Source: a virus
Virus record (IMG/VR): IMGVR_UViG_3300045988_098382
DNA length: 64,000 bases
Reading direction: 5' to 3' (one strand)
The stretch's first letter is position 1; each line of letters begins with the position of its first letter. Under the pieces are notes generated by a model. That model was not told where the DNA came from. It worked only from the letters and a program-made list of their open reading frames with translations, and did no database searches. The position numbers were made by a program, and so were the translations under genes. Below, piece by piece: positions 26,600 to 44,584 of this stretch.

Positions 26600-26677
26600 T
26601 GCAGGATGTGGGAATCAAACCCACGCAAGCCTTCACATTGGAAGTGTGATGTGCACCTTCAGCTACACTAATCCTGC
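26600..26677 (-). tRNA. tRNA-Gly (anticodon UCC) with long D-loop and 8-nt variable region
   Basis: Perfect acceptor GCAGGAU/AUCCUGC. D-stem GUGU/GCAC. Anticodon stem UCACA/UGUGA, loop CUUCCAA. T-arm GUGGG-UUUGAUU-CCCAC. Confidence 0.6.
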
Positions 26678-26690
26678 ATTATTTAATAGT

Positions 26691-26764
26691 GGACCACGGT
26701 GGGACTCGAACCCACGACATCTACCTTGCAAAAGTAGCGTTCTAGCCAACTAAACTACGAGCCC
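26691..26764 (-). tRNA. tRNA-Ala-like (anticodon UGC) with two acceptor-stem mismatches
   Basis: D-arm GUUU/GAAC, anticodon loop UUUGCAA, T-arm GUGGG-UUCGAGU-CCCAC. Acceptor GGGCUCG vs CGUGGUC has G3-G70 and U5-U68 mispairs. Possible pseudo-tRNA. Confidence 0.45.
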
Positions 26765-26774
26765 AAATTGGAGA

Positions 26775-27251
26775 TTACTCTCCAGTTAATTGTTTTATTT
26801 TAAGTTTAGCTTGTGTTAATTTATAGATTAAATCAGATATAGTATTTTTATTATCTTTAAGTCGTTTTCTAAGATCTTTCATAGATAATTTCATACTATT
26901 AAAGTTCTTTAAATTATTTGCTATAGATTCTAATTCTTCAAAAGATTTAGTATCATCAAACAAAGATATATTAACTTTAGCTTGTAATTCTTTAATTTTA
27001 AGATTCTGCTTTTCAATCTTATTTTCTAAAGATTTAATCTTATTATTTAAAGAATCTATACTAAGTCCACTCTCTAATTCGTCTATATAAGACTCTAATT
27101 CTCCAACTTTTTGTTCTAAACCAGCATAATGCTTCTTTCTTTCAGCATCATACTCTTTAAAACTATTTATTTTTCTTTTTAAAACAGCTATAATAAAATC
27201 CTTTTTATCATAAAAGTTTGCGTCAGATTGATAATTAAAAGTTTTTTCCAT
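26775..27251 (-). CDS. Coiled-coil protein located inside the tRNA array
   Basis: 158 aa, heptad-rich (LEQKVGELESYIDELESG...KIKELQAK). Confidence 0.5.
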   Translation of the reverse strand: MEKTFNYQSDANFYDKKDFIIAVLKRKINSFKEYDAERKKHYAGLEQKVGELESYIDELESGLSIDSLNNKIKSLENKIEKQNLKIKELQAKVNISLFDDTKSFEELESIANNLKNFNSMKLSMKDLRKRLKDNKNTISDLIYKLTQAKLKIKQLTGE

Positions 27252-27272
27252 ATTATTTATTTTTTTAATTAG

Positions 27273-27356
27273 TTGTCTAGGAGAGATTCAAACTCCCGAA
27301 GCTAAATAGCGGCAAATTTACAGTTTGCTGTGTTTGACCACTTCACATACTAGACA
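27273..27356 (-). tRNA. tRNA-Tyr (GUA), class II with long variable arm
   Basis: Acceptor UGUCUAG/CUAGACA perfect. D-stem UGUG/CACA. Anticodon stem GCAAA/UUUGC, loop CUGUAAA. T-arm GGGAG-UUUGAAU-CUCUC. Confidence 0.8.
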
Positions 27357-27417
27357 ATTTTTAGTAAGATTAGCGTTATCCAATTCACACCACGTGGAGG
27401 TTCTTACTATGTGAATC

Positions 27418-27497
27418 TTGCAGAGGCGGGATTCGAACCACTTTGTGCGACCTCTTGGTTATGAGCCAAGCGAGATAACCAACTTCTCCACTCTGCG
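27418..27497 (-). tRNA. tRNA-Met-like (CAU) with C1-A72 mismatch (initiator-like) and a weak T-stem
   Basis: Acceptor CGCAGAG/CUCUGCA. D-stem GAGA/UCUC. Anticodon stem CUUGG/CCAAG, loop CUCAUAA. T-loop UUCGAAU present but the 5' T-stem half is imperfect. Confidence 0.45.
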
Positions 27498-27508
27498 ATA
27501 TTAAAAAG

Positions 27509-27580
27509 AGCTTCAAGTAGGATTCGAACCTACGACCTGCTCATTACAAGTGAGCTGCACTACCACTGTGCTATTGAAGC
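27509..27580 (-). tRNA. tRNA-Thr (UGU)
   Basis: Acceptor GCUUCAA/UUGAAGC. D GCAC/GUGC. Anticodon stem GCUCA/UGAGC, loop CUUGUAA. T-arm GUAGG-UUCGAAU-CCUAC. Confidence 0.85.
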
Positions 27581-27725
27581 TTAAATAAAAGCGAATATGG
27601 CATTAGACGGGCAAACTATCGTGACCATATTCTAATAATACATTGAGCTATCAGGCATACTCGTGGATTGCCACCGCTACCTCTAACAACCACCCAGTTA
27701 ACAACTAGGTGCTCTCCATTATTTG

Positions 27726-27802
27726 CGGAATATAAGGGACTCGAACCCTTAGTTTTACTAGAGTGACAGTCTAGTTCCCTTACCAACAGGGCTTAATACT
27801 CC
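27726..27802 (-). tRNA. tRNA-Asp (GUC)
   Basis: Acceptor GGAGUAU/AUAUUCC (one G-U). Anticodon stem CUAGA/UCUAG, loop CUGUCAC. T-arm AAGGG-UUCGAGU-CCCUU. Confidence 0.7.
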
Positions 27803-27813
27803 ATATATTTTTG

Positions 27814-27893
27814 CGCCTAGACTAGGATTCGAACCTAGGAACCTTTCGGGGCAAGTTAACAGCTTGCTGCCGTTGACCACTTGGCTATCTAGA
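27814..27893 (-). tRNA. tRNA with anticodon GUU (Asn-type) but a 12-nt variable region and a 3-bp D-stem
   Basis: Acceptor GUCUAGA/UCUAGGC. Anticodon stem GCAAG/CUUGC, loop CUGUUAA. Variable CCCGAAAGGUUC. T-arm CUAGG-UUCGAAU-CCUAG. Confidence 0.5.
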
Positions 27894-27906
27894 CGAAAGT
27901 CCTGAT

Positions 27907-28062
27907 TAATCAGGACATACAGTTGAATCAATAGCAGTAGTATCAACTACTGTAGTATCAACATTAATAGAATCATTTGAAGTTGAATTTACTGAATTAT
28001 TTGAACCAGTAGAACAACTCAAAAGTGTAAATAATACACTAAATACAAGTAATTTCTTCATT
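27907..28062 (-). CDS. Small lipoprotein (51 aa)
   Basis: MKKLLVFSVLFTLLSCSTGS... signal peptide + lipobox LLSC. Stop codon sits in the loop of the GUCCUGAUUAAUCAGGAC hairpin. Confidence 0.35.
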
Positions 28063-28124
28063 TTTTATTCTTTTTTATCGTATTGACTATTATAAATCTA
28101 AATTTTATTATTCAAAATATAATT

Positions 28125-28171
28125 TTAATAAAATTTAAAAATGAACCGAGAACTTCCCAATTCTCGGTTCT
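28125..28171 (-). terminator. Rho-independent terminator (minus strand)
   Basis: Perfect 10-bp stem GAACCGAGAA-(8 nt)-UUCUCGGUUC followed on the minus strand by AUUUUUAAAUUUU. Confidence 0.6.
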
Positions 28172-28340
28172 GTGTACTAAGGTAAGTACGACCCTTCCAA
28201 TTTCATGTTGAAATCTTCAAAAAAGTCAGTATATTTATAGATATATACATCTGGGAATCAGGTTAATCGTGAAATTCGTAACTATAACAGTCCTAACCCG
28301 TTTGTGATGTAAATATAATTTAATTATAAAATTATAAAAG

Positions 28341-28562
28341 TTAATTTTTGTTTACTTTATTATTTTTAATTAAATTATTTATTTCTGTTTCTGTGAGTTC
28401 TATCTTGTAATCTCCATAACTTAAAGAATAATTAAAATCAAATAAATAGACAAATTTATTATCTATATATTGAGCACATTGTGGAATTACACTAATATTA
28501 GTAACTGTAAATTTAATATTGTCTAAAACAATACTTTCATACAATTTAAATTTGCTAGTCAT
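28341..28562 (-). CDS. Hypothetical protein
   Basis: 73-aa ORF. Confidence 0.4.
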   Translation of the reverse strand: MTSKFKLYESIVLDNIKFTVTNISVIPQCAQYIDNKFVYLFDFNYSLSYGDYKIELTETEINNLIKNNKVNKN

Positions 28563-28727
28563 AATAAACTAAAAGAGGGAACTCTAAATAGAGTCCCCTC
28601 AAAAGATTGAGTTTCCTTTTAATTATCACGACTATAATTCACGTTTCACAACGTTCAATAAGTATTCCTTATTACTGATGTTATTATAGTCGTGAATTTT
28701 TTTTCTAAAAATAAAATCTTAAAAATT

Positions 28728-29105
28728 TTAATTCTGAATCATAGCACGAAGCTCTTCAATAGATTTATTCTCAAGAGCTTCATCCTCTTTCTTTGCGATA
28801 AGCTCAGCAATACGTTTGTTACGAGCATCAATCTGTGCTCTATTAATATTATCTTTACGAGCCTTTAATTTAATATTAATTACATCTTTTACGATGCTGA
28901 AACGAAGTTCATCATCATTTTCTTCAGCTGGAAGCTCTTCAATGAAAGACTTCTTAGGAGCCTCACTAATTTTCTTATCTAGCATAATAGCTAAAGTGTT
29001 AAGATTCTGCAGAGATAAGTCGAACAAATCTTCTGTAGTAATCATACCCTTGTTTGTCTTAAAACGTAATTTTTTCTGTAATGCTTCTTTGTACATTGTT
29101 GTCAA
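28728..29105 (-). CDS. Hypothetical protein (charged, helical)
   Basis: 125-aa ORF. Confidence 0.45.
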   Translation of the reverse strand: MTTMYKEALQKKLRFKTNKGMITTEDLFDLSLQNLNTLAIMLDKKISEAPKKSFIEELPAEENDDELRFSIVKDVINIKLKARKDNINRAQIDARNKRIAELIAKKEDEALENKSIEELRAMIQN

Positions 29106-29108
29106 TTA

Positions 29109-31142
29109 TTAAATGTTTACTTTATAAATTTTACCTGAATCTACTCTAACCATAATAGAGTTACGAGAAGTAGCTATAAATCCTAAACCACTCATCTGAT
29201 TATCATCATAAGGAGTTAAAGCTTTAGATGCTAATACTTCAAACACTCTCTTATGATTCTTAGTGAGTTCGTCTTTAAGATACTCATTAAAATATCCACG
29301 AACAGCATCTGGATTCTTACAATCCTTCAACATAAAGAAATAGTGCTTAGCACCTACTTTATTATTCCCCCAGTAATTTGGAGATAAGCATATAGCAGAT
29401 ACTTCAATGAAGTTCTGAGTCTTTACTCCCCAAATTTCTTTAGATGCTGTAGTACTACTCAAATGCTCCTTAGTAAAGACAACTTCACGTCCATTAGAAG
29501 TAAAATCTAATACTGAAACATCGCTTTTATCAGGAATGTCTTTGTTATATACATAAGTATGAACAACTCCATTGAGTTCTACTTCTACTTCAAATCCTAA
29601 ATCAATATTTTCAACTTTAGCAAAGTTGTTAACAAATACTTTATAAGTACCTGCTTTAGGAATTCCTGAGAAAATGATATTTTCTACAGCATCACGAGAA
29701 AACTTCTTAGGGAACTCACGTTCTGCAGAGACACTGCCTCCACAGGCATTCATATCTACATCAAGTAAGTTATGTTTGTTATTGTAGCAGACATGTCCAT
29801 AAGGACTTATCATATGTAAATCCAAATCATCGTAATTATACCAATGAAGAGAGATTCTCATATAGCCATCTACCTTACCTCCTACTTCTTTAACACGTTG
29901 TTTAATAGCATCAGAGATATTACCGTTATATGCCCAAGCAAAACCATTAGTCCATTTAAACATAGAAGGAGCTTCTTTATTAACTGGGGCAGTAAGAGTT
30001 ACTAAATTATTATTTAACTTGTTGTCAAAGAATAATTCAAGCTTACTAGCCTTAGAAACAATATTATTAAGAAACTCTTCCATAGTTGTTGGGATGGCAG
30101 TCTTCTCAAAATCTGTAGCAGCTTTGCTAGTATTAGAAGTTTCATTCATAAGAGAATCAAATCCTCCTAACATTCTCTTACGAGTTTCTCTATTTACAAA
30201 GATAACATCTTCAATAGATATATCTTCTACTTTAGCATGACGTCTTTCTAAAGAATCTTCATATCCTAATTCTACTACAGTTTTATAAGCATTTTCTACC
30301 TGGGTTTTGGTAATAATACCTTTAGGTCTCTTATAATTATAAGGAGCAACCATAGATTCAAACTTCTTAACTGAACTTTCAACATTGTTAGTATCAGTTA
30401 TGTCTTTAAGAAGCTGACCTATAGCACTATTAAGTATATGTGTTACAGGCTCTGGAAGTATACAAGAAGATATCCAAGCATAATTATCTAATTCAGAACC
30501 TTCCAAGTGCTTACTCTCTATTGTATCAAGAGCAGTCTTTAAAGCACTTACTTGGCGTAGATAAGTGTCACCTCTATAGAGGTTATCATCTGCAATTAAG
30601 TCTAATACTGTCTGTACAGAACTATAATTAATTTCAGATAAAGTTCTTACCCATACATCGTGTGAAGATTTAGCACCTGCACGAAATGTTGGAGTTTGAG
30701 ACTTATCCATAATTAAATTACGTGTAGGAGTAGCATAAAAATGGTTCCAAGTAATTATTTCTTTAGAAGGTAGTATCTGCTGATTACATTTACAACCCAT
30801 TGTAGTCTCTTCTGTAACAAATGCATTTCTAATTTTAGTATTTTTAAGCACTTGTAACATATTGTCTACAACTTTAGCAAACATTCCTTCAGCGTGAACA
30901 TCCTCCCAGTAAGAATGTATTTTATAGTTCTCATCTACAGAAACTAATGCTCCATAGCGAGTAATGAAATGTTTACAATTTACACAGTTAAATTCTTGAC
31001 GTACGGCTCCTTCAGGGAAAGATTCCATATAAGCCATCCATAAAAATTCTTTTTGAGTGTCAAGAATAAAGAGATGTTTGTTCTCTTTAATCATCTTATT
31101 ACATGCTTCTGTAACAAGATTTCTAAAATCTAAGTATTCCAT
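29109..31142 (-). CDS. Large hypothetical protein (677 aa), first gene of a flotillin/AAA+ neighbourhood
   Basis: Long uninterrupted ORF with several Cys pairs (FNCVNCKHF, GCKCNQ). No family recognised by eye. Confidence 0.55.
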   Translation of the reverse strand: MEYLDFRNLVTEACNKMIKENKHLFILDTQKEFLWMAYMESFPEGAVRQEFNCVNCKHFITRYGALVSVDENYKIHSYWEDVHAEGMFAKVVDNMLQVLKNTKIRNAFVTEETTMGCKCNQQILPSKEIITWNHFYATPTRNLIMDKSQTPTFRAGAKSSHDVWVRTLSEINYSSVQTVLDLIADDNLYRGDTYLRQVSALKTALDTIESKHLEGSELDNYAWISSCILPEPVTHILNSAIGQLLKDITDTNNVESSVKKFESMVAPYNYKRPKGIITKTQVENAYKTVVELGYEDSLERRHAKVEDISIEDVIFVNRETRKRMLGGFDSLMNETSNTSKAATDFEKTAIPTTMEEFLNNIVSKASKLELFFDNKLNNNLVTLTAPVNKEAPSMFKWTNGFAWAYNGNISDAIKQRVKEVGGKVDGYMRISLHWYNYDDLDLHMISPYGHVCYNNKHNLLDVDMNACGGSVSAEREFPKKFSRDAVENIIFSGIPKAGTYKVFVNNFAKVENIDLGFEVEVELNGVVHTYVYNKDIPDKSDVSVLDFTSNGREVVFTKEHLSSTTASKEIWGVKTQNFIEVSAICLSPNYWGNNKVGAKHYFFMLKDCKNPDAVRGYFNEYLKDELTKNHKRVFEVLASKALTPYDDNQMSGLGFIATSRNSIMVRVDSGKIYKVNI

Positions 31143-31159
31143 AAAATTTTTAAAAGTTA

Positions 31160-31200: not shown

Positions 31201-31204
31201 ATGT

Positions 31205-32758
31205 TTACACATTTACGTTGGTGTTCTCTACGTCGCCATTAACGTTAACATTCTTGTTAACCTTAGCTTCAATAGTGTTAGCCTTCATAATTTCTGCCAT
31301 ATCTACACCTGTGGCATCTTTTACCATGTCACGAGTTTGTTTGATAACAGCAGGTACATTACCTGAAATACCAGAAGCCTCAGTACCATTGGTACCATAA
31401 ACTGTCATACTACCAATCTTACTCATAGGCTCTGCAATATGCTTAGCCATATCAGGAAGAACATCCTTATAAAGATCTGAGATAGTATCAATTATAGCCG
31501 CTGGACCATACTTACTGTAAGCCTCAGCCTTCTTCTGCATAGCTTCAGCCTCTGCAAGACCTTTAGCCTTAACACCTTCAGCTTCTGCTAAAAGCTTAGC
31601 TTTAATACCTGCAGCCTCAGCAGTCATAGTCTGTTGAGTAGCATATGCTTCAGCTTCACCCTTAGCACGAATACCTGCTGCTTCCTGCTCCTGAGAATAA
31701 CGATTAGCTTCAGCTTTAGCTTTTACAGCCTTAGCAGTCTGCTCTGCCTTATAAGCCTCAGCCTCAGCCTCACGCTTCTGCTTCTCCAAAGCTGCCTGAG
31801 CATCAATCTCTGTCTGATACTTATCAGCATCAGCCTTAGCATTTACATCTGCAAGATACTCATTCTGCTTAATCTTAATCTTCTCCTCAGACAAAGTCTG
31901 CTCTTTACGAGTCTTCTCAATATCAGCATCTACAGTCTTGATATTAATAGTCTTCTGTTGCTCCTGCTGCTGAATTTTATATGCAGCATCAGATTCAGCC
32001 TTCTTAATATCAGACAATCTCTTCAGTTCAGCTCTCTTAATAGCTAACTCATTATTACGTTCAGCAATAATGGTATCAGCTTTTACTCGTGCTTCATTAG
32101 CCTCATTGTCAGCTTCAGCCTGAGCCTTAGCTACATCTCTATCAGCATTAGCACGGGTAATTTTAGCATTCTTCTGAATAGCTGCTGTATTATCAGCACC
32201 CAAATCACGGATCAAGCCCTTCTCATCAGTAATATTCTGAATATTGCAAGACAAAATCTCAAGACCTAACTTAGCCATATCAGGAGCTGCCTTCTTCTGA
32301 ATTTCATCAGAGAATGCATCTCTATCAGTGTTAATTTTAATCAAGTCAAGAGAGCCTACTACTTCACGCATATTACCTTCTAAAGAATCTTTCACCTGAG
32401 CAGCAATCTGAACAGAATTCATATTCAAGAAGTTCTTAGCTGCAAGTCTAGTGCCTTCTGTATCAGGTTTTACCCTAACTTTACATACGGCATCTACCAT
32501 TACATCCAAGAAATCATGAGTAGGAACTGGCTGTGAAGTCTTAACATCAACTGTTACTTGACCAAGATATACTTTATCCAATCGTTCAAGTACAGGAATT
32601 TTTACTCCACCATTACCGATAAGTACTCGTGGCTCCTTACGAAAACCTGAAAGAATGTATGCCATCGAAGGAGGAGCTTTAACATACATTGTAGCAATAA
32701 TAACAAGCAGTACAATAATAGCGACTGCGACAACACCAATAAGAACTAAATGTTCCAT
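31205..32758 (-). CDS. Flotillin-like SPFH (band-7) domain protein
   Basis: N-terminal TM (LVLIGVVAVAIIVLLVIIA). SPFH core. Long Ala/Glu/Lys coiled coil (AEAEAYKAEQTAKAVKAKAEA...) typical of flotillin/YqiK. Confidence 0.8.
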   Translation of the reverse strand: MEHLVLIGVVAVAIIVLLVIIATMYVKAPPSMAYILSGFRKEPRVLIGNGGVKIPVLERLDKVYLGQVTVDVKTSQPVPTHDFLDVMVDAVCKVRVKPDTEGTRLAAKNFLNMNSVQIAAQVKDSLEGNMREVVGSLDLIKINTDRDAFSDEIQKKAAPDMAKLGLEILSCNIQNITDEKGLIRDLGADNTAAIQKNAKITRANADRDVAKAQAEADNEANEARVKADTIIAERNNELAIKRAELKRLSDIKKAESDAAYKIQQQEQQKTINIKTVDADIEKTRKEQTLSEEKIKIKQNEYLADVNAKADADKYQTEIDAQAALEKQKREAEAEAYKAEQTAKAVKAKAEANRYSQEQEAAGIRAKGEAEAYATQQTMTAEAAGIKAKLLAEAEGVKAKGLAEAEAMQKKAEAYSKYGPAAIIDTISDLYKDVLPDMAKHIAEPMSKIGSMTVYGTNGTEASGISGNVPAVIKQTRDMVKDATGVDMAEIMKANTIEAKVNKNVNVNGDVENTNVNV

Positions 32759-34955: not shown

Positions 34956-35048
34956 AATTAACAGTTAAAATTAAACAAAAATCCCTGAACTATAATAATA
35001 GCCCAGGGATTAAAAACAAATAATAATAAAAACAGTTCTATGAACTAG

Positions 35049-35377
35049 TGGAGCATTGGAGAGTCGAACTCCAGTCTTGCATATTTGCATCAAAGCATTC
35101 TTACAGCATAGGTTTTAAAGACTATCCTTGTCTTTTAGGGTTGACAGGATTAATATACTGTCAACTTCCACCACTCTGTTCCTAAAGTATACAGAGAACT
35201 TATAGAATTGTCAATGGCGCACCTTTCTGTTCCTAAGCAAGTGCTGCTCGGCTTATTAGGCAGCAGCCTGATAAGCAGGAGTCATATTAATAACTCTAGC
35301 ATTTATTGTTTTGTTGTCTTTCCAACTGTCTTTGCTGTGCTTCTTATCTCCTATACAATCAAAACCACGAATGCCCC
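35049..35377 (-). ncRNA. ssrA: tmRNA (ssrA), phage-encoded
   Basis: 5' GGGGCAU pairs with 3' AUGCUCC, including a G3-U70 wobble (the alanine identity element). 3' T-arm UGGAG-UUCGACU-CUCCA then discriminator A. Internal tag frame ...NMTPAYQAAA followed by UAAUAA double stop, then GCC... as in bacterial tmRNAs. About 329 nt, no protein ORF. Confidence 0.7.
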
Positions 35378-36905: not shown

Positions 36906-37161
36906 ATTTTTACCATATTATGTAAAGTCCAGGATCTTCATTACCTAAATAAGATGTTTTAAATCCTAAACTATAAAAATAATCAAAATAAGCCTTTTCA
37001 GGCTTCATTTCCTTATGTATCCCCCCAAATTGGCTGCATTTGTTTGGTATATCCTTCTTAATCTAACTAATAAACAACATTAGTTAGTCAATATTCTTTT
37101 ACCAGTCGGGTGCAACCCATGCGTCTAAGTATACTTAGAATACAAACCAACCCGATTTTCG

Positions 37162-37242
37162 TCGGAATAGTGGGACTCGAACCCACACGCATTGCTGCAT
37201 ATGCTCCTAGGGCATACGTGTCTGCCATTCCACCATACTCCG
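37162..37242 (-). tRNA. tRNA-Leu (UAG), class II
   Basis: Acceptor CGGAGUA/UAUUCCG (one G-U). Anticodon stem UAUGC/GCAUA, loop CCUAGGA. Long variable arm. T-arm GUGGG-UUCGAGU-CCCAC. Confidence 0.75.
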
Positions 37243-39637: not shown

Positions 39638-39729
39638 ATGTTAATGTGTTATTTAATTAAACAATAAAAGAGCCTAACTAGATTAACTAATTAGACTCTT
39701 TAAAAAGAATAATATGATAAAAGAAATAG

Positions 39730-39803
39730 TGGGGAAGTACAGGCTTGAACTGTAGACCTTCTGATTATGAGTCAGCTGCTCTAACCGACTGAGCTACAAC
39801 CCC
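39730..39803 (-). tRNA. tRNA-Met (CAU, elongator-like) with two U-U mismatches in the acceptor stem
   Basis: D-arm GCUC-AGUCGGUUA-GAGC, anticodon loop CUCAUAA, T-arm UACAG-UUCAAGC-CUGUA. Acceptor GGGGUUG vs CUUCCCC has U5-U68 and U6-U67 mispairs. Confidence 0.55.
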
Positions 39804-40007
39804 GAAGATGTGTCTGAGAGTCGTTAATTCTCTCCTCCCTACTTGCTAGCAGAGCGTGCAACTTGCCACTAAGACACACTTTTTTGAGTTTTGTAAGTCC
39901 TCCGACTTATTAAAGTTTTCACATTAATTTTGATAAAAAATTCTACTTTCACAAGCAAAACTCTTTTATTTTTAATAACTTAAAAATTAAAATTTATGAT
40001 AGAAAAG

Positions 40008-40086
40008 GAAATGCGGACAGATTCGAACTGCCAACCTCTGAGTTTTAACCCAGTGCTCTACCGCTATGACTTTGAGCTACACATTT
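40008..40086 (-). tRNA. Noncanonical tRNA-like gene (15-nt D-loop, 6-nt anticodon loop UUAAAA)
   Basis: Acceptor AAAUGUG/CGCAUUU, D-stem GCUC/GAGC, T-arm GGCAG-UUCGAAU-CUGUC. The anticodon region does not form a canonical 7-nt loop. Confidence 0.35.
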
Positions 40087-41066
40087 CTATTTATATTAGT
40101 ATTGCTATATAGCCTTATTTAAAAACTCATACTACTTTCACAAGCAATGTGAGTTATCTTTAGTCACTCTTGACTAGACATAGATAATTACAAGAAATTC
40201 ATTAATTTTCACAAATTAATAAATTAATATGAGTTTAGAAATACTCATAGATACTCAAATAACCATTTTATCATAATGTAGTAGCTCAGACAAGAATCGA
40301 ACTTGCACGACCATTCCTGGTCAAGGGATTTTCCTACCACACTTGCTTTTATACAAGCTAACTTACAACCGTGCTCTTATTATTTACACCATTATCAATC
40401 CCCGAAGGATTAGCGTGAGAATTTAATCTACTGCTGTAAGTTATTGTGGTCTGGACTATTTCTTTACCATATTAGAAATGTTGCAACTTTCAAAACAGTA
40501 ATCTCTAATGTGCTTTCTCACATTACGTGAATCTTTATAGACTTCATAAGTATGTATTGAAATTTCTAACTTAGGTATCTCCTATATAGTCTCTACACAT
40601 TTATGAATACACAAATATAGAAAATTTTGTATTTAAACTTACTAATATCTTTTGCCTAGTCTCGGAAGATACTAATCATTTTCTATACGTACTTTGCATA
40701 TCCAATTTAGCTCGTCATCACCAAAACCTATGTCACCATAGGTGAGGCTTCTGTCGCAACTTGTATAAGTTGTTTAATTAGGGAGATTCTACTTCTATTG
40801 TTTCCAATAGAGCACTCAAAACTATGAAACATTTAATGAATAAGTCCCTCGTGTCTACCAATTCCACCACTGAGCCAGATTGCAACTAATTATCTGCTAG
40901 TTGCCAACAATATTTGGGAAAAACCAACATATCGTTATAAAGTTATATGCGTTCAACATCATAATCAAATCCGGATGTGTTGAGGTCTTCCATTAACCAA
41001 AATGGGTCATCCAATACATAATCATCCGGAACTTCTACTGTTACTTTTAATACTATTTTCTTCATA

Positions 41067-41604: not shown

Positions 41605-41615
41605 ACTCCTATTAA

Positions 41616-42005
41616 TTAGCCCATAATAAAACGAGCACTTATAATATTTTCAGGATGATGAATAGTTTTAGTTAATCCTTTCATCGCCCATTTCACAACA
41701 TCAGAATGTTTAACTCCACTTTTAAGTTCATGGTAAAACATTAAATCATAAGCTTCTCCACTTTTAAAAGTTACTTTGATTTTAAATGTAGGCTTTTCAT
41801 CATTTCTAATAAGTTCATTCATTTCTTCATCAGTTACCATGTAACTGAACAGAGGATTAGAAAGATGTTCTTCTTTGTACTTTTTTTCAAGTTCAGCTAA
41901 GTTTAACTTTGCACACTTGAGTACATTTTTACAACCAAATTTCTTAGCACTTTCTATTTGTGCTATTAAATTGGTTTTACTAACAAAATAATCTTGTCTT
42001 GTCAT
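41616..42005 (-). CDS. Hypothetical protein
   Basis: 129-aa ORF. Confidence 0.4.
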   Translation of the reverse strand: MTRQDYFVSKTNLIAQIESAKKFGCKNVLKCAKLNLAELEKKYKEEHLSNPLFSYMVTDEEMNELIRNDEKPTFKIKVTFKSGEAYDLMFYHELKSGVKHSDVVKWAMKGLTKTIHHPENIISARFIMG

Positions 42006-42299
42006 AATTTATCTATAATTAATGTGTTAATAATCTATTTAAATAATAGGCGATTTTCACTGGTTATATTTAAACTATTCCATTGTCCTCAGCTATCTAA
42101 CGTTCTTTTTCTTTTTAACCCAAATGATTAATTTTAAGGTAATTACGCTATTTAATAGAGTTACTGAGAGTTGTTTAGTACCTATTAAAATTGTCAGGTG
42201 TAGAGATTCGAACTCCTTAGGCTTATTCCCGTACGAGCTATTCACCAATCTAACCCCTCGTAGATGACGGTTCCCACACCGTAAGTCACCTGTTAGATT

Positions 42300-43029
42300 C
42301 TTAGTTAGAATCTTTTAAGAATAATACTAATTCTTTTTTAGTACATGGTATTTCATATTTTTTACACCATTTTCGGATTGTAGTATCTGACACATTATAA
42401 AATTTACCTACAGCAACAAATGATTTTAACTCTTTAAATTTATTTATAAAATCCTATTTAGCTGGTAAGTCTACTTTTTGTGCCATTTTAGCAGCACATT
42501 TAGGACAATATCTAGCAGCTTTTGTTTTCTTTTCTGCTCCACATAATTCACAAAAATATTTTGCAGCTTTGTTTGCTTGTCCACAATAGTTATCTGTTTG
42601 TGAATGACAATTTGGGCATAGCATTTGTAAATTCTCTAACCTATTGTCTCTATTATCGCCGTTAATATGATGTAGCTAACATATTAAAGGATTATCTAAC
42701 CAATATCCATTCTTACAAGGGCACTTAGGATTCTCACACTCATTCTTTTTAAGACCCTCTTTAATTAACTTTTCTTTTAATTTAGTGGTATGAATATATT
42801 TTCCAGTACCTAAATATTCTTTTACTGGGACATAATTCTCAATTCCTTTTTTACTCTTTGCTCCATAAGTAAAATGAGAGTAATCTATATTATACTCTTC
42901 TAATCTTTTTCTTAATGTAGCAGTATTATTACCTGCTCTAGGTATATTTAGTTTTTCTAATACCTAAGATAATGAATCACAGTCTGCAATAACTGATTCA
43001 ATTCTTTCTTTTGACCAATCATACTTCAT
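42300..43029 (-). CDS. HNH homing endonuclease requiring read-through of three in-frame TAG codons (recoded)
   Basis: Hand translation from ATG at 43029: MKYDWSKERIESVIADCDSLS[TAG]VLEKLNIPRAGNN...NPLIC[TAG]LHHINGDNRDNRLENLQMLCPNCHSQTDNYCGQ...AKMAQKVDLPAK[TAG]DFINKF...ends TAA. Contains the canonical HNH motif. No TAA/TGA in frame. Absent from the standard-code ORF track. Confidence 0.65.
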
Positions 43030-43415
43030 ATTACATATTCTTAAAATTAGAAGGATATAGAGGAGTTAAACCTCTTCTTTTGGGGTCAAATCCCAACGTG
43101 ACTGTCGTTACACCAATATCCCTTGTATCTAATAGATAGCACTGTAGTGCTACCATTACACCATAGCCCATTATTAAAACTTTCTATCTTCACAGACCGA
43201 AAGTTTTCTAACTCTTTAACGTTTTTACAATCCGCTGATTGTAATATAATAATTCAAACAATTTCTATGAATTAGTAGCACTAGCGATACTCGAAATCGC
43301 CTTTGGATCTTGAAAGAATCCCGTCCTGACCAGCTAGACGATAGTGCCAAGTAGATTCTCTATCTATCACAGACTAAGAATTCCAAGAAAAAGTAATATT
43401 AAGATAAATTCCATG

Positions 43416-43489
43416 CGCACCCTGTAGGATTCGAACCTACGACTTTCTGACTAATAGCCAGACGTTCTAACCAACTGAACTAAGAGTAC
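43416..43489 (-). tRNA. tRNA with unusual anticodon loop CUAUUAG (formal anticodon AUU; a 1-nt register shift would give UUA)
   Basis: Acceptor GUACUCU/AGGGUGC (two G-U). D GUUC/GAAC. Anticodon stem UCUGG/UCAGA. T-arm GUAGG-UUCGAAU-CCUAC. Confidence 0.5.
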
Positions 43490-43561
43490 AAATCTCTACC
43501 TATTTATCGCAAACCGGTAGAGTACCAATTTAAAACGAATATTCTTTTAAGAGAAGTTGTG

Positions 43562-43634
43562 TTCCCTACGAGATTCGGACTCGTGACCCACAGATTAAAA
43601 ATCTGTTGCTCTACCAACTGAGCTAAGAGAACTA
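43562..43634 (-). tRNA. tRNA-Lys (UUU)
   Basis: Acceptor GUUCUCU/AGGGAAC. D GCUC/GAGC. Anticodon stem ACAGA/UCUGU, loop UUUUUAA. T-arm ACGAG-UCCGAAU-CUCGU. Confidence 0.85.
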
Positions 43635-43641
43635 ATATGCA

Positions 43642-43729
43642 CACGGAGTAGGATTCGAACCCACGCTGTTCAACTTTCGTCTCTATAGGTTTTGGAGACC
43701 TACCCTTTCGACCACTCAGGCATCCGTAT
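43642..43729 (-). tRNA. Class-II-like tRNA (Tyr/Ser-like D-arm, ~20-nt variable arm) carrying anticodon CCA
   Basis: Acceptor AUACGGA/UCCGUGU. D-region CCUGAGUGGUCGAAAGGG. Anticodon stem UAGGU/ACCUA, loop CUCCAAA. T-arm GUGGG-UUCGAAU-CCUAC. Confidence 0.45.
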
Positions 43730-43733
43730 ATAG

Positions 43734-43805
43734 TGGAGATACGTGGAATCGAACCACAATCTCGGGATTTTCAGTCCCGCGCTCTGACCTTCTAAGCTAT
43801 ATCTC
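43734..43805 (-). tRNA. tRNA-Phe (GAA)
   Basis: Acceptor GGAGAUA/UAUCUCC perfect. Anticodon stem CGGGA/UCCCG, loop CUGAAAA. T-arm UGUGG-UUCGAUU-CCACG. Confidence 0.85.
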
Positions 43806-43904
43806 CGTATCCCACATTTCTTTAAGGAGAATAGTGGTAACACCTACCTATACTAATAGATTTATTAGTCAGGATTATTATACACATTAACAATATATCA
43901 AATT

Positions 43905-43990
43905 GAATTTGTACGGTAGAAAGGATTCGAACCAATGACCTTCTCGAAATGACCTATTATAAAAAGAGATGCTCTAACCACTGAGCTACT
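43905..43990 (-). ncRNA. tRNA-like gene with perfect acceptor and D-arm but a 4-bp anticodon stem enclosing a 20-nt loop and a degenerate T-stem
   Basis: Acceptor ACGGUAG/CUACCGU. D GCUC-AGUGGUUA-GAGC. UCUC-(20 nt)-GAGA. T region UGGUUCGAAUCCUUU. Same architecture as 44426..44506. Confidence 0.35.
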
Positions 43991-44050
43991 ACCGTAAGTA
44001 CTAGTTTATATCGGAAAACTAGTAAAACGTTAACACATTATTATGGAAAC

Positions 44051-44410
44051 TTAAAAGCCAAATAAATATATTACATCTTTAGATGGACTAAGACTTATAT
44101 ATGGAATATTATTTTCTTCAGTAATTGTAACGATATAATATTTATTAGTATTAATATCTTTACACATATGATATTCCATATCTCCTTGTCTTTTAGAAGA
44201 AGTAATCTTTAATACCATCTTACCCCATTTATTATTACTAAAAGTAATAGTTTTTCTAGATTCATTATAAACTACTGAGGTTTTAATGTAAAATGGGGCA
44301 CTCCATTCACCATCTTTATAAACAGTGATAGAACCATAATTAAACGCATGAGCTATTGTAGTTAATACAATAAAACTCATTAATAAAATAATCTTTTTCA
44401 TATTACTCAA
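44051..44410 (-). CDS. Secreted hypothetical protein
   Basis: Signal peptide MSNMKKIILLMSFIVLTTIAHA. Confidence 0.45.
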   Translation of the reverse strand: MSNMKKIILLMSFIVLTTIAHAFNYGSITVYKDGEWSAPFYIKTSVVYNESRKTITFSNNKWGKMVLKITSSKRQGDMEYHMCKDINTNKYYIVTITEENNIPYISLSPSKDVIYLFGF

Positions 44411-44425
44411 TCTTTTTAATATTAG

Positions 44426-44506
44426 TACGGAGTAAAGGATTCGAACCAGTATAACCTCTCTATGAATTGTGGAAGTGAGGTGCTCTAGCCATTAAGCTAA
44501 CTCCGC
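44426..44506 (-). ncRNA. tRNA-like gene, paralog of 43905..43990 (20-nt expanded anticodon region)
   Basis: Acceptor GCGGAGU/ACUCCGU. D GCUU-AAUGGCUA-GAGC. CCUC-(20 nt)-GAGG. T region UGGUUCGAAUCCUUU. Confidence 0.35.
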
Positions 44507-44511
44507 ATATG

Positions 44512-44584
44512 TGGTCCTGGTGAGAATCTAACTCACGACCCGGATTTTAGAAGAATCCTGCTCTATACACTGAGCTACAGGACC
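44512..44584 (-). tRNA. tRNA-Arg (UCU) with noncanonical T-loop UUAGAUU
   Basis: Acceptor GGUCCUG/CAGGACC perfect. D GCUC/GAGC. Anticodon stem GGAUU/AAUCC, loop CUUCUAA. T-stem GUGAG/CUCAC. Confidence 0.75.

What the first reader, a model, noticed from the sequence alone, without database searches (positions are those of the whole stretch)
26600..44584. Two minus-strand tRNA arrays (at least 18 genes) in which many members are noncanonical
Alongside clean tRNAs (Tyr, Thr, Asp, Lys, Phe, Arg, Leu) the arrays contain several oddities. Two tRNAs have two mismatches in the acceptor stem: G3-G70/U5-U68 and U5-U68/U6-U67. An initiator-like Met tRNA has C1-A72 but a defective T-stem. A GUU-anticodon tRNA has a 12-nt variable region. 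A class-II-like tRNA bears anticodon CCA. One tRNA has the loop CUAUUAG, one register shift from UUA. A paralogous pair (43905..43990 and 44426..44506) has perfect acceptor and D arms but a 4-bp stem enclosing a 20-nt loop where the anticodon arm should be, plus a shared degenerate T region UGGUUCGAAUCCUUU. These could be decoys for host anticodon nucleases, additional suppressors or recoding factors, or tRNA-derived regulatory RNAs.
Basis: seen in the sequence. Interest (0 to 1): 0.6.

Follow-up and report, generated by a model that had tools for sequence, protein, structure and literature searches.

The report
Phage tRNA arrays with tRNA mimics
A large crAss-like gut phage carries about twenty tRNA genes, two self-cleaving ribozymes, an intron and a tmRNA, plus several conserved tRNA look-alikes that cannot read codons. 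Two of these derive from an initiator tRNA of the type found in Bacteroidales; most of the reported "defects" are normal for this phage lineage, but the look-alikes have no known job.

Summary
ARAGORN and Rfam find 18 tRNA-like genes on the minus strand between 26599 and 44584. I add an intron-split tRNA-Leu(UAA), two more tRNA-like genes and a tmRNA.

The window is a ~30% GC crAss-like gut phage (probably Zeta-like) that reads TAG as sense in late genes.

Most "defects" are conserved lineage features:
- **tRNA-Ala** refolds with a 1-nt bulge that restores G3·U70 and A73.
- **Long-variable-region Gly, Asn(GUU) and Trp(CCA)** recur in relatives; Gly and Asn show compensatory changes.
- **The AUU tRNA** is a derived copy of a canonical tRNA-Asn(GUU).
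- **The "degenerate" T arm of the pair** matches, 21 of 21 nt, the variable region and T arm of Bacteroidales initiator tRNA-fMet.
- **The initiator-like tRNA-Met** is followed directly by an HDV-like theta ribozyme, as is the amber suppressor.

Four genes cannot decode: pair A and B (17–20-nt loops), "family 2" (5–8-nt loops) and "TLS42". Their stems are kept by compensatory changes, so they are constrained tRNA mimics. An ochre suppressor is not supported. A decoy role is plausible but untested. Lak megaphage "pseudo-tRNAs with enigmatic introns" are the closest precedent. Verdict: new variant of a known kind, moderate interest.

The parts
26599..26677 (-). tRNA-Gly(UCC), 79 nt, with about 8 extra nt in the variable region
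   Evidence: ARAGORN. Rfam gives only a local match of 32.9 bits. Acceptor and anticodon stems change by compensation across 13 related loci.
26690..26764 (-). tRNA-Ala(UGC). Best read with a 1-nt bulge in the 3' acceptor strand, which gives G3.U70 and A73.
   Evidence: The ungapped reading has G3.G70 and U5.U68. The bulged reading scores -17.2 against -12.2 kcal/mol and is the one the MFE uses. Relatives carry this allele or a canonical 75-nt Ala allele at the same position.
27272..27356 (-). tRNA-Tyr(GUA), class II
   Evidence: It is a paralogue of the GUU tRNA; locus L025 holds a chimera of the two.
27364..27417 (-). HDV-like (theta-type) self-cleaving ribozyme, starting 1 nt after the discriminator of the initiator-like tRNA-Met
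   Evidence: Rfam HDV-F-prausnitzii gives 27.4 bits, below its gathering score of 44. A motif scan finds the same core, ACC-UCCACGU-GGU...GG...GCUAA, in 10 distinct copies, each directly after a tRNA 3' end. P1 and P2 differ between the two window copies with pairing kept.
27418..27497 (-). Initiator-like tRNA-Met(CAU): C1xA72, A11:U24, an 8-nt insertion at the variable/T junction, and a 4-bp T stem with an 8-nt loop
   Evidence: It aligns with Bacteroidaceae tRNA-fMet. Locus L013 holds the same gene.
27508..27580 (-). tRNA-Thr(UGU), canonical
   Evidence: 75.3 bits
27725..27802 (-). tRNA-Asp(GUC), 78 nt
   Evidence: present in 14 related loci, two of them with a T-loop deletion
27813..27894 (-). 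tRNA-Asn(GUU) with a class-II D arm, a 12-nt variable region and G73
   Evidence: Nearly invariant in 13 loci, with a compensated T-stem change in L015.
35046..35377 (-). Phage tmRNA with G3.U70 and tag ARVINMTPAYQAAA
   Evidence: Rfam 48.1 bits against a gathering score of 47. ARAGORN at relaxed threshold, plus the L011 orthologue.
37161..37242 (-). tRNA-Leu(UAG)
39729..39803 (-). tRNA-Met or Ile2(CAU) with tandem U5.U68 and U6.U67
   Evidence: 60.5 bits. The same acceptor stem occurs in L111 and L034.
40008..40086 (-). 'Family 2' tRNA-like gene: full cloverleaf, 6-nt anticodon loop, enlarged D loop, G at -1, C73
   Evidence: Rfam tRNA gives only 24.3 bits. Across 24 distinct orthologues, 98.2% of cells pair and all 5 anticodon-stem pairs show two-sided changes; 0 of 500 shuffles reach the covariation score. 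Loop length is 5-8 nt.
40281..40876 (-). tRNA-Leu(UAA) split by a 509-nt group-I-type intron. Exons are 40842-40876 and 40281-40332.
   Evidence: ARAGORN -i; coordinates. Spliced exons match an intron-less orthologue in L011. The same intron sits at the same site in L003, L004, L008 and L010. Part of it is 84% identical to the gap that splits primase genes of cr116_1 and IAS virus. Rfam RF00028 gives only 13.8 bits.
40881..40920 (-). 40-nt motif directly upstream of tRNA-Leu(UAA); a second copy lies upstream of tRNA-Arg
   Evidence: A 30-nt core is identical in both copies, with 0 expected by chance.
42194..42292 (-). 'TLS42' tRNA-like gene: acceptor, D and T arms, a long variable arm, and a 5-bp stem with a 6-8-nt G-rich loop in place of the anticodon arm
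   Evidence: No Rfam hit. The consensus fold shows compensated pairs in the acceptor, D and variable arms. It also occurs in Lak-C1 megaphage. Absent from 185,579 bacterial genomes by a 24-mer scan.
43050..43122 (-). tRNA-Gln(UUG) with an unusual D loop and T loop
   Evidence: 46.3 bits; sequence
43275..43348 (-). tRNA-Glu(UUC) with U53-A61 instead of G53-C61
   Evidence: ARAGORN. Rfam misses it even at E<=5. The anticodon stem is compensated across 8 loci.
43415..43489 (-). tRNA-Asn derivative with anticodon AUU (loop CUAUUAG)
   Evidence: 61 bits. Orthologues in L110 and L119 have the canonical loop CUGUUAA.
43559..43632 (-). tRNA-Lys(UUU)
   Evidence: 69.5 bits
43639..43729 (-). tRNA(CCA), 91 nt: class-II D arm, 20-nt variable region, A1-U72, G73
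   Evidence: Present in 12 IMG/VR loci plus MT835539.1; the variable region is 13 or 20 nt.
43733..43806 (-). tRNA-Phe(GAA)
   Evidence: 71.7 bits. Five relatives carry 3-nt deletions in the anticodon arm.
43911..43995 (-). tRNA mimic 'A': intact acceptor and D arms, a 4-bp stem (UCUC/GAGA) around a 20-nt loop, and an initiator-type variable region and T arm
44051..44410 (-). 119-aa ORF whose N-terminus looks like a signal peptide (read by eye), always flanked by B and A
   Evidence: Syntenic in 11 loci. No significant Pfam match.
44425..44506 (-). tRNA mimic 'B': paralogue of A, with stem CCUC/GAGG around an 18-nt loop
44511..44584 (-). tRNA-Arg(UCU)
   Evidence: 63.1 bits. Relatives carry an alternative allele, some with a 12-nt hairpin inserted in the variable region.
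44588..44627 (-). Second copy of the 40-nt upstream motif
53332..53404 (+). Amber suppressor tRNA(CUA)
   Evidence: Reading TAG as sense opens ORFs of 956, 309 and 278 aa at 54679-62391 on the minus strand.
53405..53461 (+). Second theta-type ribozyme, directly after the suppressor tRNA

Best explanation
The region is the tRNA and translation module of a large crAss-like gut phage, probably of the Zeta group. The phage reads UAG as sense in its late genes. Three kinds of gene are mixed in the module.

1. About 16 working decoder tRNAs. Most are U34 readers of the A-ending codons this AT-rich phage prefers. Their unusual features are lineage-typical, and where relatives differ the changes are compensated. 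These features are long variable regions in Gly, Asn(GUU) and Trp(CCA); a bulged acceptor stem in Ala; tandem U.U in Met; and U53-A61 in Glu.

2. RNA processing devices. Theta (HDV-like) ribozymes should cut the 3' ends of the initiator-like tRNA-Met and of the amber suppressor. A group-I-type intron splits tRNA-Leu(UAA). There is also a tmRNA.

3. At least four tRNA-shaped genes that cannot decode: pair A and B, 'family 2' and TLS42. A and B descend from an initiator tRNA-fMet of the type found in Bacteroidales. They kept its variable region and T arm but lost its initiator marks, and 9-11 extra nucleotides sit in the 5' side of the anticodon loop.

Shown: these genes exist, they are syntenic, and their stems are held by compensatory substitution while loop length and sequence drift.

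Inferred: they are transcribed with the arrays, cut by RNase P and 3' nucleases and given CCA like tRNAs. They then act as tRNA mimics that occupy or divert host proteins binding the tRNA body and anticodon arm, most plausibly anticodon-arm nucleases of host defence. They do not act as adaptors on the ribosome.
For: Genome identity and code:
- 92.9% identity to a 121-kb human-gut phage record, and short matches to crAss phages.
- The helicase's nearest named relative is the crAss-like Cellulophaga phage phi14:2, at 27% identity.
- Related IMG/VR contigs are 94-225 kb.
- TAG read-through opens long ORFs on the minus strand at 54.7-62.4 kb, next to a tRNA(CUA).

Decoders:
- The tRNA set (UUU, UUG, UUC, UAA, UCU, UCC, UGC, UGU) matches the A-ending codons the phage uses heavily: AAA 68%, UUA 49%, AGA 57%.
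- Compensatory changes occur in Gly, Tyr, Glu and Asn.
- The Trp(CCA) gene recurs in 12 IMG/VR loci plus MT835539.1.
- The bulged Ala register is 5 kcal/mol better.

Ribozymes:
- The same catalytic core sits directly after tRNA 3' ends (Met, Sup and Leu) in 10 distinct copies.
- P1 and P2 differ between copies with pairing kept.
- This matches the published theta-ribozyme association with tRNA-Met, Sup and Leu (PMC10879173).

Intron.

Mimics:
- Family 2: 98.2% of cells paired, 5 of 5 anticodon-stem pairs with two-sided changes, 0 of 500 shuffles reaching the score, and loops of 5-8 nt.
- A and B: the acceptor stem is 100% paired with 5 of 7 positions compensated, the central stem is 100% paired, and loops are 17-20 nt.
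- The L001 copies are only 77-78% identical yet fully paired.
- The A/B variable region and T arm match Bacteroidales tRNA-fMet at 21 of 21 nt.
- TLS42 has compensated pairs and is shared with Lak megaphage.
Against: - There are no expression, processing or aminoacylation data.
- The mimic or decoy role is inference only. No host nuclease is identified, and no tRNA-handling enzyme was found among the 20 neighbouring proteins scanned.
- In loci L002-L011 the near-identity of A extends into the adjacent 55-nt spacer. That part of the conservation may reflect recent recombination rather than selection on the RNA.
- The arrays plainly undergo birth and death. Relatives carry deleted Ser, Asp, Gly, Trp, Phe, A and B copies, so some odd members could be early-stage relics.
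- The AUU tRNA was not found in any other contig.
- Rfam does not reach gathering scores for the ribozyme (27.4 against 44) or the intron (13.8 against 50).
Confidence: 0.6

Rival explanations
1. Birth-and-death decay. The odd members, including A, B, family 2 and TLS42, are tRNA pseudogenes in a rapidly recombining mosaic array. They have no function of their own.
For: - Array content differs between close relatives, and many copies are visibly broken: a T-loop deletion in Asp, deletions in Gly, Ser, Trp and Phe, L002 B lacking its D arm, and L009 A with a 13-nt deletion.
- A 29-nt 5' fragment of a tRNA-Gln lies at 43142-43170.
- The AUU tRNA is a unique derivative of a GUU gene.
- Conservation of A extends into the flanking spacer.
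Against: - Neutral decay would break stems. Instead, 98.2% of family-2 cells pair, with two-sided changes at all 5 anticodon-stem pairs.
- A and B keep 100% acceptor pairing through changes at 5 of 7 positions, including in the divergent L001 copies.
- Non-canonical loops are the rule in all but one orthologue, L119, which has 7 nt. The non-decoding state is therefore old, yet structure is still maintained.
Confidence: 0.17
2. RNA-processing punctuation. The tRNA-shaped elements serve only as RNase P and 3'-end cleavage sites. They release or stabilise the mRNA of the small ORFs embedded in the tRNA operons, for example the 119-aa ORF always flanked by B and A.
For: - The order B, ORF, A is invariant in 11 loci.
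- The ORF sits inside a tRNA cluster behind a shared upstream motif.
- The features RNase P needs, the acceptor and T arms, are the best conserved.
Against: - Genuine tRNAs (Arg upstream, Phe downstream) already flank the ORF, so extra elements are not needed.
- Punctuation does not need an anticodon stem, yet that stem is the most strongly compensated helix in family 2, and the central stem of A and B is always paired.
- In the window, family 2 and TLS42 were not seen to bracket an ORF in this way.
Confidence: 0.12
3. Unconventional decoders. Copy A would be an ochre (UAA) suppressor. B would be a tRNA with a short intron that is removed to give a CAU or UCC tRNA. Family 2 members would be frameshifting tRNAs with 6- or 8-nt loops.
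For: - ARAGORN calls A 'Stop(tta)' and B 'Gly(tcc) plus a 9-nt intron'.
- In the window-type copies, a canonical-looking loop (G)UCAUUU or UUCAUAG sits against the 3' strand of the central stem.
- Some family-2 loops, such as CUAGGUAA, look like 8-nt frameshift-suppressor loops.
- Lak megaphage tRNAs with 'enigmatic introns' are a precedent (10.1101/356790).
Against: - Anticodon calls change between orthologues.
- The UCAU remnant is out of register in the L001 and L008 copies.
- Reading TAA as sense opens ORFs on both strands indiscriminately, as expected for a 30% GC genome.
- From general knowledge: no short-intron splicing machinery is known in bacteria.
- No RNA ligase or endonuclease was found among the 20 neighbouring proteins scanned.
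- Loop length varies from 5 to 8 nt among close relatives, which a decoder could not tolerate.
Confidence: 0.08

Closest known systems
Lak megaphage tRNA sets with 'pseudo-tRNAs' carrying 'enigmatic introns' (Devoto et al., bioRxiv 10.1101/356790)
   Same: - Both are gut phages linked to Bacteroidales (Lak infects Prevotella) with TAG recoding.
- Both carry tens of tRNAs, some oversized and callable only as 'intron-containing' (Phe GAA, Gly TCC, Thr TGT, Tyr GTA).
- The inserts are highly conserved between cohorts.
- Here TLS42 and about 150 nt downstream of it are roughly 90% identical to Lak-A and Lak-C sequences.
   Different: - This is a crAss-like phage.
- I separate a true group-I-type intron (Leu UAA) from short loop expansions that have no intron hallmarks.
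- I show stem covariation, and I trace A and B to initiator tRNA.
- A and B themselves are absent from Lak records.
Theta (minimal HDV-like) ribozymes next to tRNA-Met, tRNA-Sup and tRNA-Leu in recoded gut phages (Kienbeck et al. 2024, PMC10879173)
   Same: - The ribozyme starts at the tRNA 3' end (the paper's criterion is within 5 nt of the tRNA).
- It associates with the same three tRNA types: Met and Sup in the window, Leu in relatives.
- The host genome recodes TAG.
   Different: - These copies score below the Rfam HDV-like gathering score.
- Cleavage has not been tested.
Nuclease-resistant phage tRNAs: T5 tRNA-Lys against PARIS, T5 tRNA-Tyr against retron PtuAB, and anticodon-loop mutations in mycobacteriophage tRNAs (PMC11464382, PMC11555353, PMC10264068)
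   Same: - These are phage tRNA arrays whose anticodon loops differ from the host's.
- The AUU derivative of tRNA-Asn and the hypervariable loops fit the idea that the anticodon arm is the contested surface.
   Different: - The known cases are still functional decoders that replace cleaved host tRNAs.
- Here the most striking members cannot decode at all.
- No host nuclease has been identified.
Bacterial and phage Y RNAs (YrlA) with a tRNA-like domain (PMC4201824)
   Same: - They are non-coding RNAs with acceptor-like, D and T arms.
- They are handled by RNase P, the CCA-adding enzyme and tRNA-modifying enzymes.
- One has a 6-nt 'anticodon' loop.
   Different: - YrlA genes lie next to Ro60/Rsr and carry a Ro-binding helix.
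- No TROVE-domain protein appeared among the 20 neighbouring proteins scanned.
- No Rfam Y-RNA hit was found.
Group I intron in tRNA-Leu(UAA) of cyanobacteria and plastids (from general knowledge)
   Same: - The gene is the same, and so is the insertion point between U34 and A35.
- The 5' exon ends in U and the intron ends in G.
- Core blocks resemble the R and S elements.
   Different: - The sequence is related to introns that split primase genes of other crAss phages, not to the cyanobacterial intron.
- RF00028 scores only 13.8 bits.

Membership tests
Decoding tRNA (cloverleaf, Rfam RF00005) | Score at or above the RF00005 gathering score of 29 bits | tested here: met
   Met for 18 minus-strand genes, including A (53.2) and B (43.7). 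Not met for family 2 (24.3 bits), TLS42 (no hit) or tRNA-Glu (no hit at E<=5).
Decoding tRNA (cloverleaf, Rfam RF00005) | A 7-nt anticodon loop with U33 and an anticodon that is stable among orthologues | tested here: not met
   This applies to the four mimics. A and B have loops of 17-20 nt. Family 2 has 5-8 nt, with 7 nt in only one of 24 sequences. TLS42 has 6-8 nt. The feature is met by the other tRNAs in the window.
Decoding tRNA (cloverleaf, Rfam RF00005) | Stems maintained by compensatory substitution | tested here: met
Ochre (UAA) suppressor tRNA, for copy A | UUA at positions 34-36 of a 7-nt loop, conserved in orthologues | tested here: not met
   ARAGORN's arm has a C.U mismatch and U37. 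Orthologues are called Tyr-ata or Trp-cca plus intron, and the U-run length varies.
Ochre (UAA) suppressor tRNA, for copy A | Genes interrupted by in-frame TAA, with a strand-specific gain of ORFs when TAA is read as sense | tested here: not met
   Reading TAA as sense opens ORFs on both strands alike.
Amber suppressor with TAG recoding (code 15 type) | A tRNA with anticodon CUA, plus late genes that open only when TAG is read as sense | tested here: met
   tRNA(CUA) at 53332-53404. ORFs of 956, 309 and 278 aa at 54.7-62.4 kb appear only with TAG as sense. The inserted amino acid was not tested.
Theta / HDV-like ribozyme | Nested double-pseudoknot helices P1, P2, P3 and P1.1 with a conserved core, and covariation in P1 and P2 | tested here: met
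   A motif scan found 10 distinct copies with an invariant core. P1 and P2 differ between copies with pairing kept.
Theta / HDV-like ribozyme | Cleavage site within 5 nt of a tRNA 3' end | tested here: met
   G1 of the ribozyme is the base after the discriminator of tRNA-Met (27417) and of tRNA-Sup (53405).
Theta / HDV-like ribozyme | Curated covariance-model threshold | tested here: not met
   RF02682 scores 27.4 bits against a gathering score of 44. The second copy is not reported at all.
Theta / HDV-like ribozyme | Self-cleavage activity | not testable with these tools
   Needs in vitro transcription and a cleavage assay.
Group I intron | 5' exon ends in U, intron ends in G, and intron-less alleles exist with the same junction | tested here: met
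Group I intron | Conserved catalytic core (P3-P8) recognised by RF00028 | tested here: inconclusive
   RF00028 scores 13.8 bits against a gathering score of 50. By eye, conserved blocks resemble the R element (GUAGAGACUAUA) and S element (AAUAGUCC) and could form P7. Part of the intron is homologous to the gap that splits crAss primase genes.
Bacterial initiator tRNA-fMet | C1xA72 mismatch, A11:U24, three G:C pairs at 29-31/39-41, and a CAU anticodon | tested here: inconclusive
   tRNA-Met 27418-27497 has C1xA72, A11:U24 and CAU, but only two G:C pairs and an altered T arm. A and B fail all four marks, yet their variable region and T arm match Bacteroidales tRNA-fMet at 21 of 21 nt. They are descendants, not members.
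Short-intron tRNA (archaeal/eukaryal type), for A and B | An insert at a fixed position whose removal restores a conserved 7-nt loop; a bulge-helix-bulge motif; a splicing endonuclease and ligase | tested here: inconclusive
   The predicted 'intron' position and the resulting anticodon differ between orthologues. No splicing enzyme appeared among the 20 neighbouring proteins scanned. The bulge-helix-bulge motif was not formally scanned.
Y RNA (YrlA) tRNA mimics | An adjacent Ro60/Rsr gene and a Ro-binding helix | tested here: not met
   No TROVE-domain hit among 20 neighbouring proteins. No Rfam Y-RNA hit.
allo-tRNA / tRNA-Sec-like, for the class-II-like Trp and Asn tRNAs | 8/4 or 9/3 acceptor/T-stem geometry | tested here: not met
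   ARAGORN folds both genes with 7-bp acceptor and 5-bp T stems.
tmRNA | RF00023 at or above the gathering score, a tRNA-Ala-like domain with G3.U70, and a tag reading frame | tested here: met
   48.1 bits against a gathering score of 47. Tag ARVINMTPAYQAAA** and a GGGGCAU/AUGCUCC acceptor stem.
Anti-defence phage tRNA (nuclease-resistant replacement or decoy) | A cognate host tRNA nuclease, with resistance or sequestration demonstrated | not testable with these tools
   The host and its defence systems are unknown. The only support is circumstantial: variation is concentrated in anticodon arms.

The most novel reading that the evidence does not exclude
A lineage of large crAss-like gut phages maintains several families of structurally constrained tRNA mimics that cannot decode. 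Two families are re-tooled copies of an initiator tRNA of the Bacteroidales type. One carries the G-1 seen in every copy, with C73 or A73; G-1 with C73 is the bacterial tRNA-His mark. One is shared with Lak megaphages. Their anticodon loops vary freely in length and sequence. Under this reading they form a dedicated RNA-based counter-defence or host-takeover layer: decoys or inhibitors for anticodon-arm nucleases or other tRNA-binding host factors. That would be distinct from the known strategy of supplying nuclease-resistant working tRNAs.
Probability: 0.3. Interest if true: 0.75.

Novelty: new variant of a known kind. Interest (0 to 1): 0.5.

Why it matters
Phage tRNAs are now seen as weapons against host tRNA-cleaving defences and as the trigger for stop-codon recoding. 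Annotation pipelines either drop oversized or odd 'tRNAs' or give them arbitrary anticodons; here they produced 'Stop', 'Gly plus intron' and 'Trp plus intron' for the same gene.

This window gives a clean, comparative case. Some of these genes are not decoders and not junk. Their stems are held by selection while the anticodon loop is free to vary, and two of them descend from an initiator tRNA of the type found in Bacteroidales.

If they turn out to be decoys or inhibitors, that adds an RNA-mimic layer to phage counter-defence in the most abundant human gut phage group. If not, they remain a caution against reading suppressor tRNAs and recoding from tRNA finder output.

The window also extends the link between theta ribozymes and tRNAs to a crAss-like genome, and shows a group-I-type intron in a phage tRNA-Leu(UAA).

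Tried and rejected
- **Ochre recoding.** I compared ORF gain under TAA, TGA and TAG read-through. Only TAG gives a localised, mostly minus-strand gain.
- **Alternative T stem for A and B** (GAAGG/CCUUU around a 14-16-nt loop). Rejected because L086 (GAUGG) and L001 (CCUCU) break it, while UCUC/GAGA always pairs.
- **Antisense targets of the big loops.** The best complementarity in the window is 9-11 nt, no better than shuffled loops.
- **Known RNA families.** Three Rfam E-value searches found nothing for TLS42, for the ~150-nt segment downstream of it, or for the loops of A and B.
- **tRNA-handling enzymes near the arrays** (ligase, kinase, CCA-adding enzyme, Ro60). Pfam on 20 neighbouring proteins gave only an AAA ATPase and an SPFH/flotillin protein above their cut-offs.
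- **Bacterial origin of TLS42.** No exact 24-mer match in 185,579 genomes.
- **Other copies of the AUU tRNA.** An exact 17-mer scan of IMG/VR found only a chance hit.
- **A and B in GenBank phages.** Found only in MT835539.1.
- **Descent of family 2 from tRNA-His.** Could not be tested, because no tRNA-His lies in the fetched bacterial loci.
- **One alignment for the A/B stems.** MAFFT shifted the central stem by one column between A and B, so I counted pairs by hand-parsed segments instead.

Full report
**What the window is**

The window is about 30% GC throughout. Over the parts that align, it is 92.9% identical to a 121-kb 'Bacteriophage sp.' record from human faeces, and it has short matches to crAss phages and Lak megaphages. 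Its SNF2 helicase finds the crAss-like Cellulophaga phage phi14:2 as the nearest named relative, at 27% identity. Related IMG/VR contigs are 94-225 kb long. That size range, together with many tRNAs and introns, fits the Zeta group of crAss-like phages (PMC7886860; PMC12386605). The group assignment is inference.

Reading TAG as sense opens ORFs of 956, 309 and 278 aa on the minus strand at 54.7-62.4 kb. Reading TGA as sense does little. Reading TAA as sense opens spurious ORFs on both strands. A tRNA(CUA) lies on the plus strand at 53332-53404.

**Check of the observation**

ARAGORN reports 17 minus-strand tRNAs between 26599 and 44584. Rfam adds 44426-44506 and a tmRNA at 35046-35377. With intron search switched on, ARAGORN also finds a tRNA-Leu(UAA) split by 509 nt at 40281-40876. 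The genes form several clusters rather than two arrays.

**The odd decoders**

*tRNA-Ala.* Both programs force an ungapped acceptor stem with G3.G70 and U5.U68. A register with one bulged U gives G1-C, G2-C, G3.U70, C4-G, U5.G, C6-G, G7-C and discriminator A73. That is the classical alanine identity set (from general knowledge). It scores -17.2 against -12.2 kcal/mol and is what the unconstrained fold uses. Relatives carry either this allele or a fully canonical Ala allele at the same position.

*tRNA-Gly(UCC), 79 nt.* It has compensated changes in both the acceptor and anticodon stems across 13 loci.

*tRNA-Asn(GUU), 82 nt.* It is a paralogue of the neighbouring class-II tRNA-Tyr, and locus L025 holds a chimera of the two. 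It has G73 and is almost invariant in 13 loci, with one compensated T-stem change.

*tRNA(CCA), 91 nt.* It recurs in 12 IMG/VR loci and in MT835539.1, with a variable region of 13 or 20 nt. It combines a Ser-type D arm with A1-U72 (or G1.U72) and G73. Together with the CCA anticodon these are bacterial Trp identity marks, but that is my knowledge and was not tested here.

*The CUAUUAG tRNA.* Its orthologues in L110 and L119 have the canonical loop CUGUUAA. The window copy is therefore a derived form with G34A, A38G and A31G. AAU makes up 83% of Asn codons in this phage, so an A34 reader is conceivable. The variant was not found in any other contig.

*tRNA-Met 39729-39803.* It keeps its tandem U.U pairs in two other contigs.

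*tRNA-Glu.* It has U53-A61 and is missed by Rfam, yet its anticodon stem covaries across loci.

*Codon match.* The decoder set matches the phage's preferred A-ending codons.

**The initiator connection**

The 21-nt variable region and T arm shared by the pair is GGUC-AUUGG-UUCGAAU-CCUUU, with tandem U.U at 50-64 and 51-63. It occurs in 53 bacterial genome loci. Most are Bacteroidaceae or other Bacteroidales, with some from other phyla. All but one of the tRNAs ARAGORN calls at these sites are tRNA-Met(CAU). The common sequences show initiator marks: C1xA72 and a GGG/CCC anticodon stem. The 'degenerate' T arm is therefore native to this type of initiator tRNA.

tRNA-Met 27418-27497 is an initiator homologue with an 8-nt insertion at the variable/T junction. 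It keeps C1xA72 and A11:U24.

*Theta ribozymes.* Directly after the discriminator of that tRNA-Met begins an HDV-like ribozyme at 27364-27417. Its parts are P1 GAUUCAC/GUGAAUU, P2 GUAAGA/UCUUAC, P3 ACC/GGU, L3 UCCACGU, J1/4 GG and then GCUAA. Rfam gives 27.4 bits, below its threshold. A second copy follows the amber suppressor at 53405-53461. Relatives carry the same core after tRNA-Leu(UAA) and tRNA-Sup. P1 and P2 differ between copies with pairing kept. This is the published theta-ribozyme arrangement (PMC10879173).

*The tRNA-Leu(UAA) intron.* It sits between U34 and A35 and ends in G. It is absent from an otherwise matching gene in L011 and present at the same site in four relatives, with conserved core blocks and variable peripheral inserts. 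Part of it is 84% identical to the sequence that splits the primase genes of cr116_1 and IAS virus. RF00028 gives only 13.8 bits. 'Group I' therefore rests on these features and on R-like and S-like blocks that I read by eye.

**The genes that cannot decode**

*Pair A (43911-43995) and B (44425-44506).*
- They flank a 119-aa ORF in all 11 related loci.
- Parsed by segment, their acceptor stems pair in 100% of cells, with two-sided changes at 5 of 7 positions. The central 4-bp stem is always paired (UCUC/GAGA in A, CCUC/GAGG in B).
- Positions 50-64 and 51-63 are always pyrimidine-pyrimidine. The loops are 17-20 nt.
- The L001 copies are only 77-78% identical to the window's, yet fully compensated: ACGGUAG/CUACCGU becomes GUGGUGG/CCACCAC.
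- In the window-type copies, a remnant (G)UCAUUU or UUCAUAG lies against the 3' strand of the stem, with 11 or 9 extra nt between positions 31 and 32. The remnant is out of register in L001 and L008.

*Family 2 (40008-40086).* Among 24 distinct orthologues, 98.2% of cells pair. All five anticodon-stem pairs show two-sided changes, and 0 of 500 shuffles reach the covariation score. Slid controls collapse to 21-48% pairing. The loop is 5, 6 or 8 nt, and 7 nt in only one sequence. The base at -1 is G in every copy, and position 73 is C or A.

*TLS42 (42194-42292).* It folds as a cloverleaf with a long variable arm and a 6-8-nt G-rich loop. It has compensated pairs in three helices. It also occurs in Lak-C1.

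**How it most likely works**

Shown: these four genes are held in tRNA shape by selection, and their loops are free to vary.

Inferred:
- They are co-transcribed with the arrays. Shared motifs lie upstream of the first gene of sub-clusters.
- They are end-processed like tRNAs.
- They act off the ribosome as tRNA mimics.

The preserved anticodon stem combined with a hypervariable loop points to an interaction at the anticodon arm. That is the surface attacked by PrrC, PARIS, retron PtuAB, VapC and Schlafen nucleases (PMC10264068, PMC13056530). I rate the decoy or inhibitor reading at about 0.3. The remainder is split between processing punctuation, slow decay and unconventional decoding. The overall description of the region I rate at 0.6.

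**Comparison with what is known, and novelty**

Multi-tRNA arrays, amber suppressors and introns in crAss-like phages are known (PMC7886860). Theta ribozymes beside tRNA-Met, Sup and Leu are known (PMC10879173). Oversized 'pseudo-tRNAs with enigmatic introns' were noted in Lak megaphages.

I found none of the following in the papers I searched and read:
- Comparative evidence that several such genes are constrained non-decoders.
- The derivation of A and B from a Bacteroidales-type initiator tRNA.
- The variable loop length of family 2.
- The sharing of TLS42 between crAss-like and Lak phages.

I class the finding as a new variant of a known kind, with an interest score of 0.5.

Noticed in passing
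window 27364-27417 (-) and 53405-53461 (+): Two HDV-like (theta-type) ribozymes. Each begins at the base after a tRNA discriminator: the initiator-like tRNA-Met and the amber suppressor. Both have the same catalytic core, with different P1 and P2 sequences that still pair.
   Followed up: yes
window 40333-40841 (-): A 509-nt group-I-type intron between U34 and A35 of tRNA-Leu(UAA). It is related to introns that split primase genes in cr116_1 and IAS virus. In relatives L003, L004 and L010 the intron itself contains a tRNA-like segment (GGCGGAAUUGGUAUAC...GGGUUCGAAUCCC).
   Followed up: partly
window 35046-35377 (-): A phage-encoded tmRNA with G3.U70 and tag ARVINMTPAYQAAA. The orthologue in L011 has tag ARVINMTPVSYAIAA.
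   Followed up: partly
window 42025-42190 (-): A segment of about 150 nt downstream of TLS42 and upstream of the ORF at 41616-42005. It is about 90% identical in Lak-A and Lak-C megaphages. It folds into a long hairpin, but there is no covariation to judge the fold. In L134, TLS42 occurs without this segment, so the two are separable modules.
   Followed up: partly
window 40881-40920 and 44588-44627 (-): A 40-nt motif (..UUGUUGGCAACUAGCAGAUAAUUAGUUGCA) lies directly upstream of the first tRNA of two sub-clusters. It may be a promoter or leader. A copy is also visible in locus L006.
   Followed up: partly
window 39929-39958 and 40118-40147 (-): A second repeated motif (UUGCUUGUGAAAGUAG...) lies upstream of tRNA-Met 39803 and also upstream of the family-2 gene.
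   Followed up: no
window 54679-62391 (-): A block of genes readable only if TAG is sense (ORFs of 956, 309, 278, 273 and 226 aa). Genes in the first 52 kb use the standard code.
   Followed up: partly
window 43142-43170 (-): A 29-nt 5' fragment of a different tRNA-Gln allele (UGGGCUAUGGUGUAAUGGUAGCACUACAG) lies just upstream of the intact tRNA-Gln. It is a relic of cassette replacement.
   Followed up: no
window 43275-43348 (-): tRNA-Glu(UUC) has U53-A61 in place of the near-universal G53-C61. Rfam's tRNA model does not see it, although its anticodon stem covaries among relatives.
   Followed up: partly
loci L028, L049, L051, L053, L078, L082, L092, L104 (IMG/VR, not crAss relatives): A separate family of phage tRNA-like genes (GUCAGU..ACUGAC acceptor stem in most copies). 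It has the same initiator-type T arm. Its anticodon arm is either shortened (14-16 nt in place of 17, in one case a tetraloop) or expanded to a 10-13-nt loop; one loop still contains CUCAUAA.
   Followed up: partly
loci L079, L081, L084, L090, L054: Orthologues of the window's tRNA-Phe carry 3-nt deletions at two different places in the anticodon arm, while the rest of the gene is largely conserved (~89-91% identity).
   Followed up: no
window 39830-39900 (-): A possible structured element upstream of tRNA-Met 39803, closed by GUGUGUCU...AGACACA. It was not analysed.
   Followed up: no
window 31205-32758 (-): A 517-aa SPFH/flotillin-family protein (Pfam Band_7 at 8e-21, Flot at 4.5e-11) lies between the tRNA clusters.
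   Followed up: no
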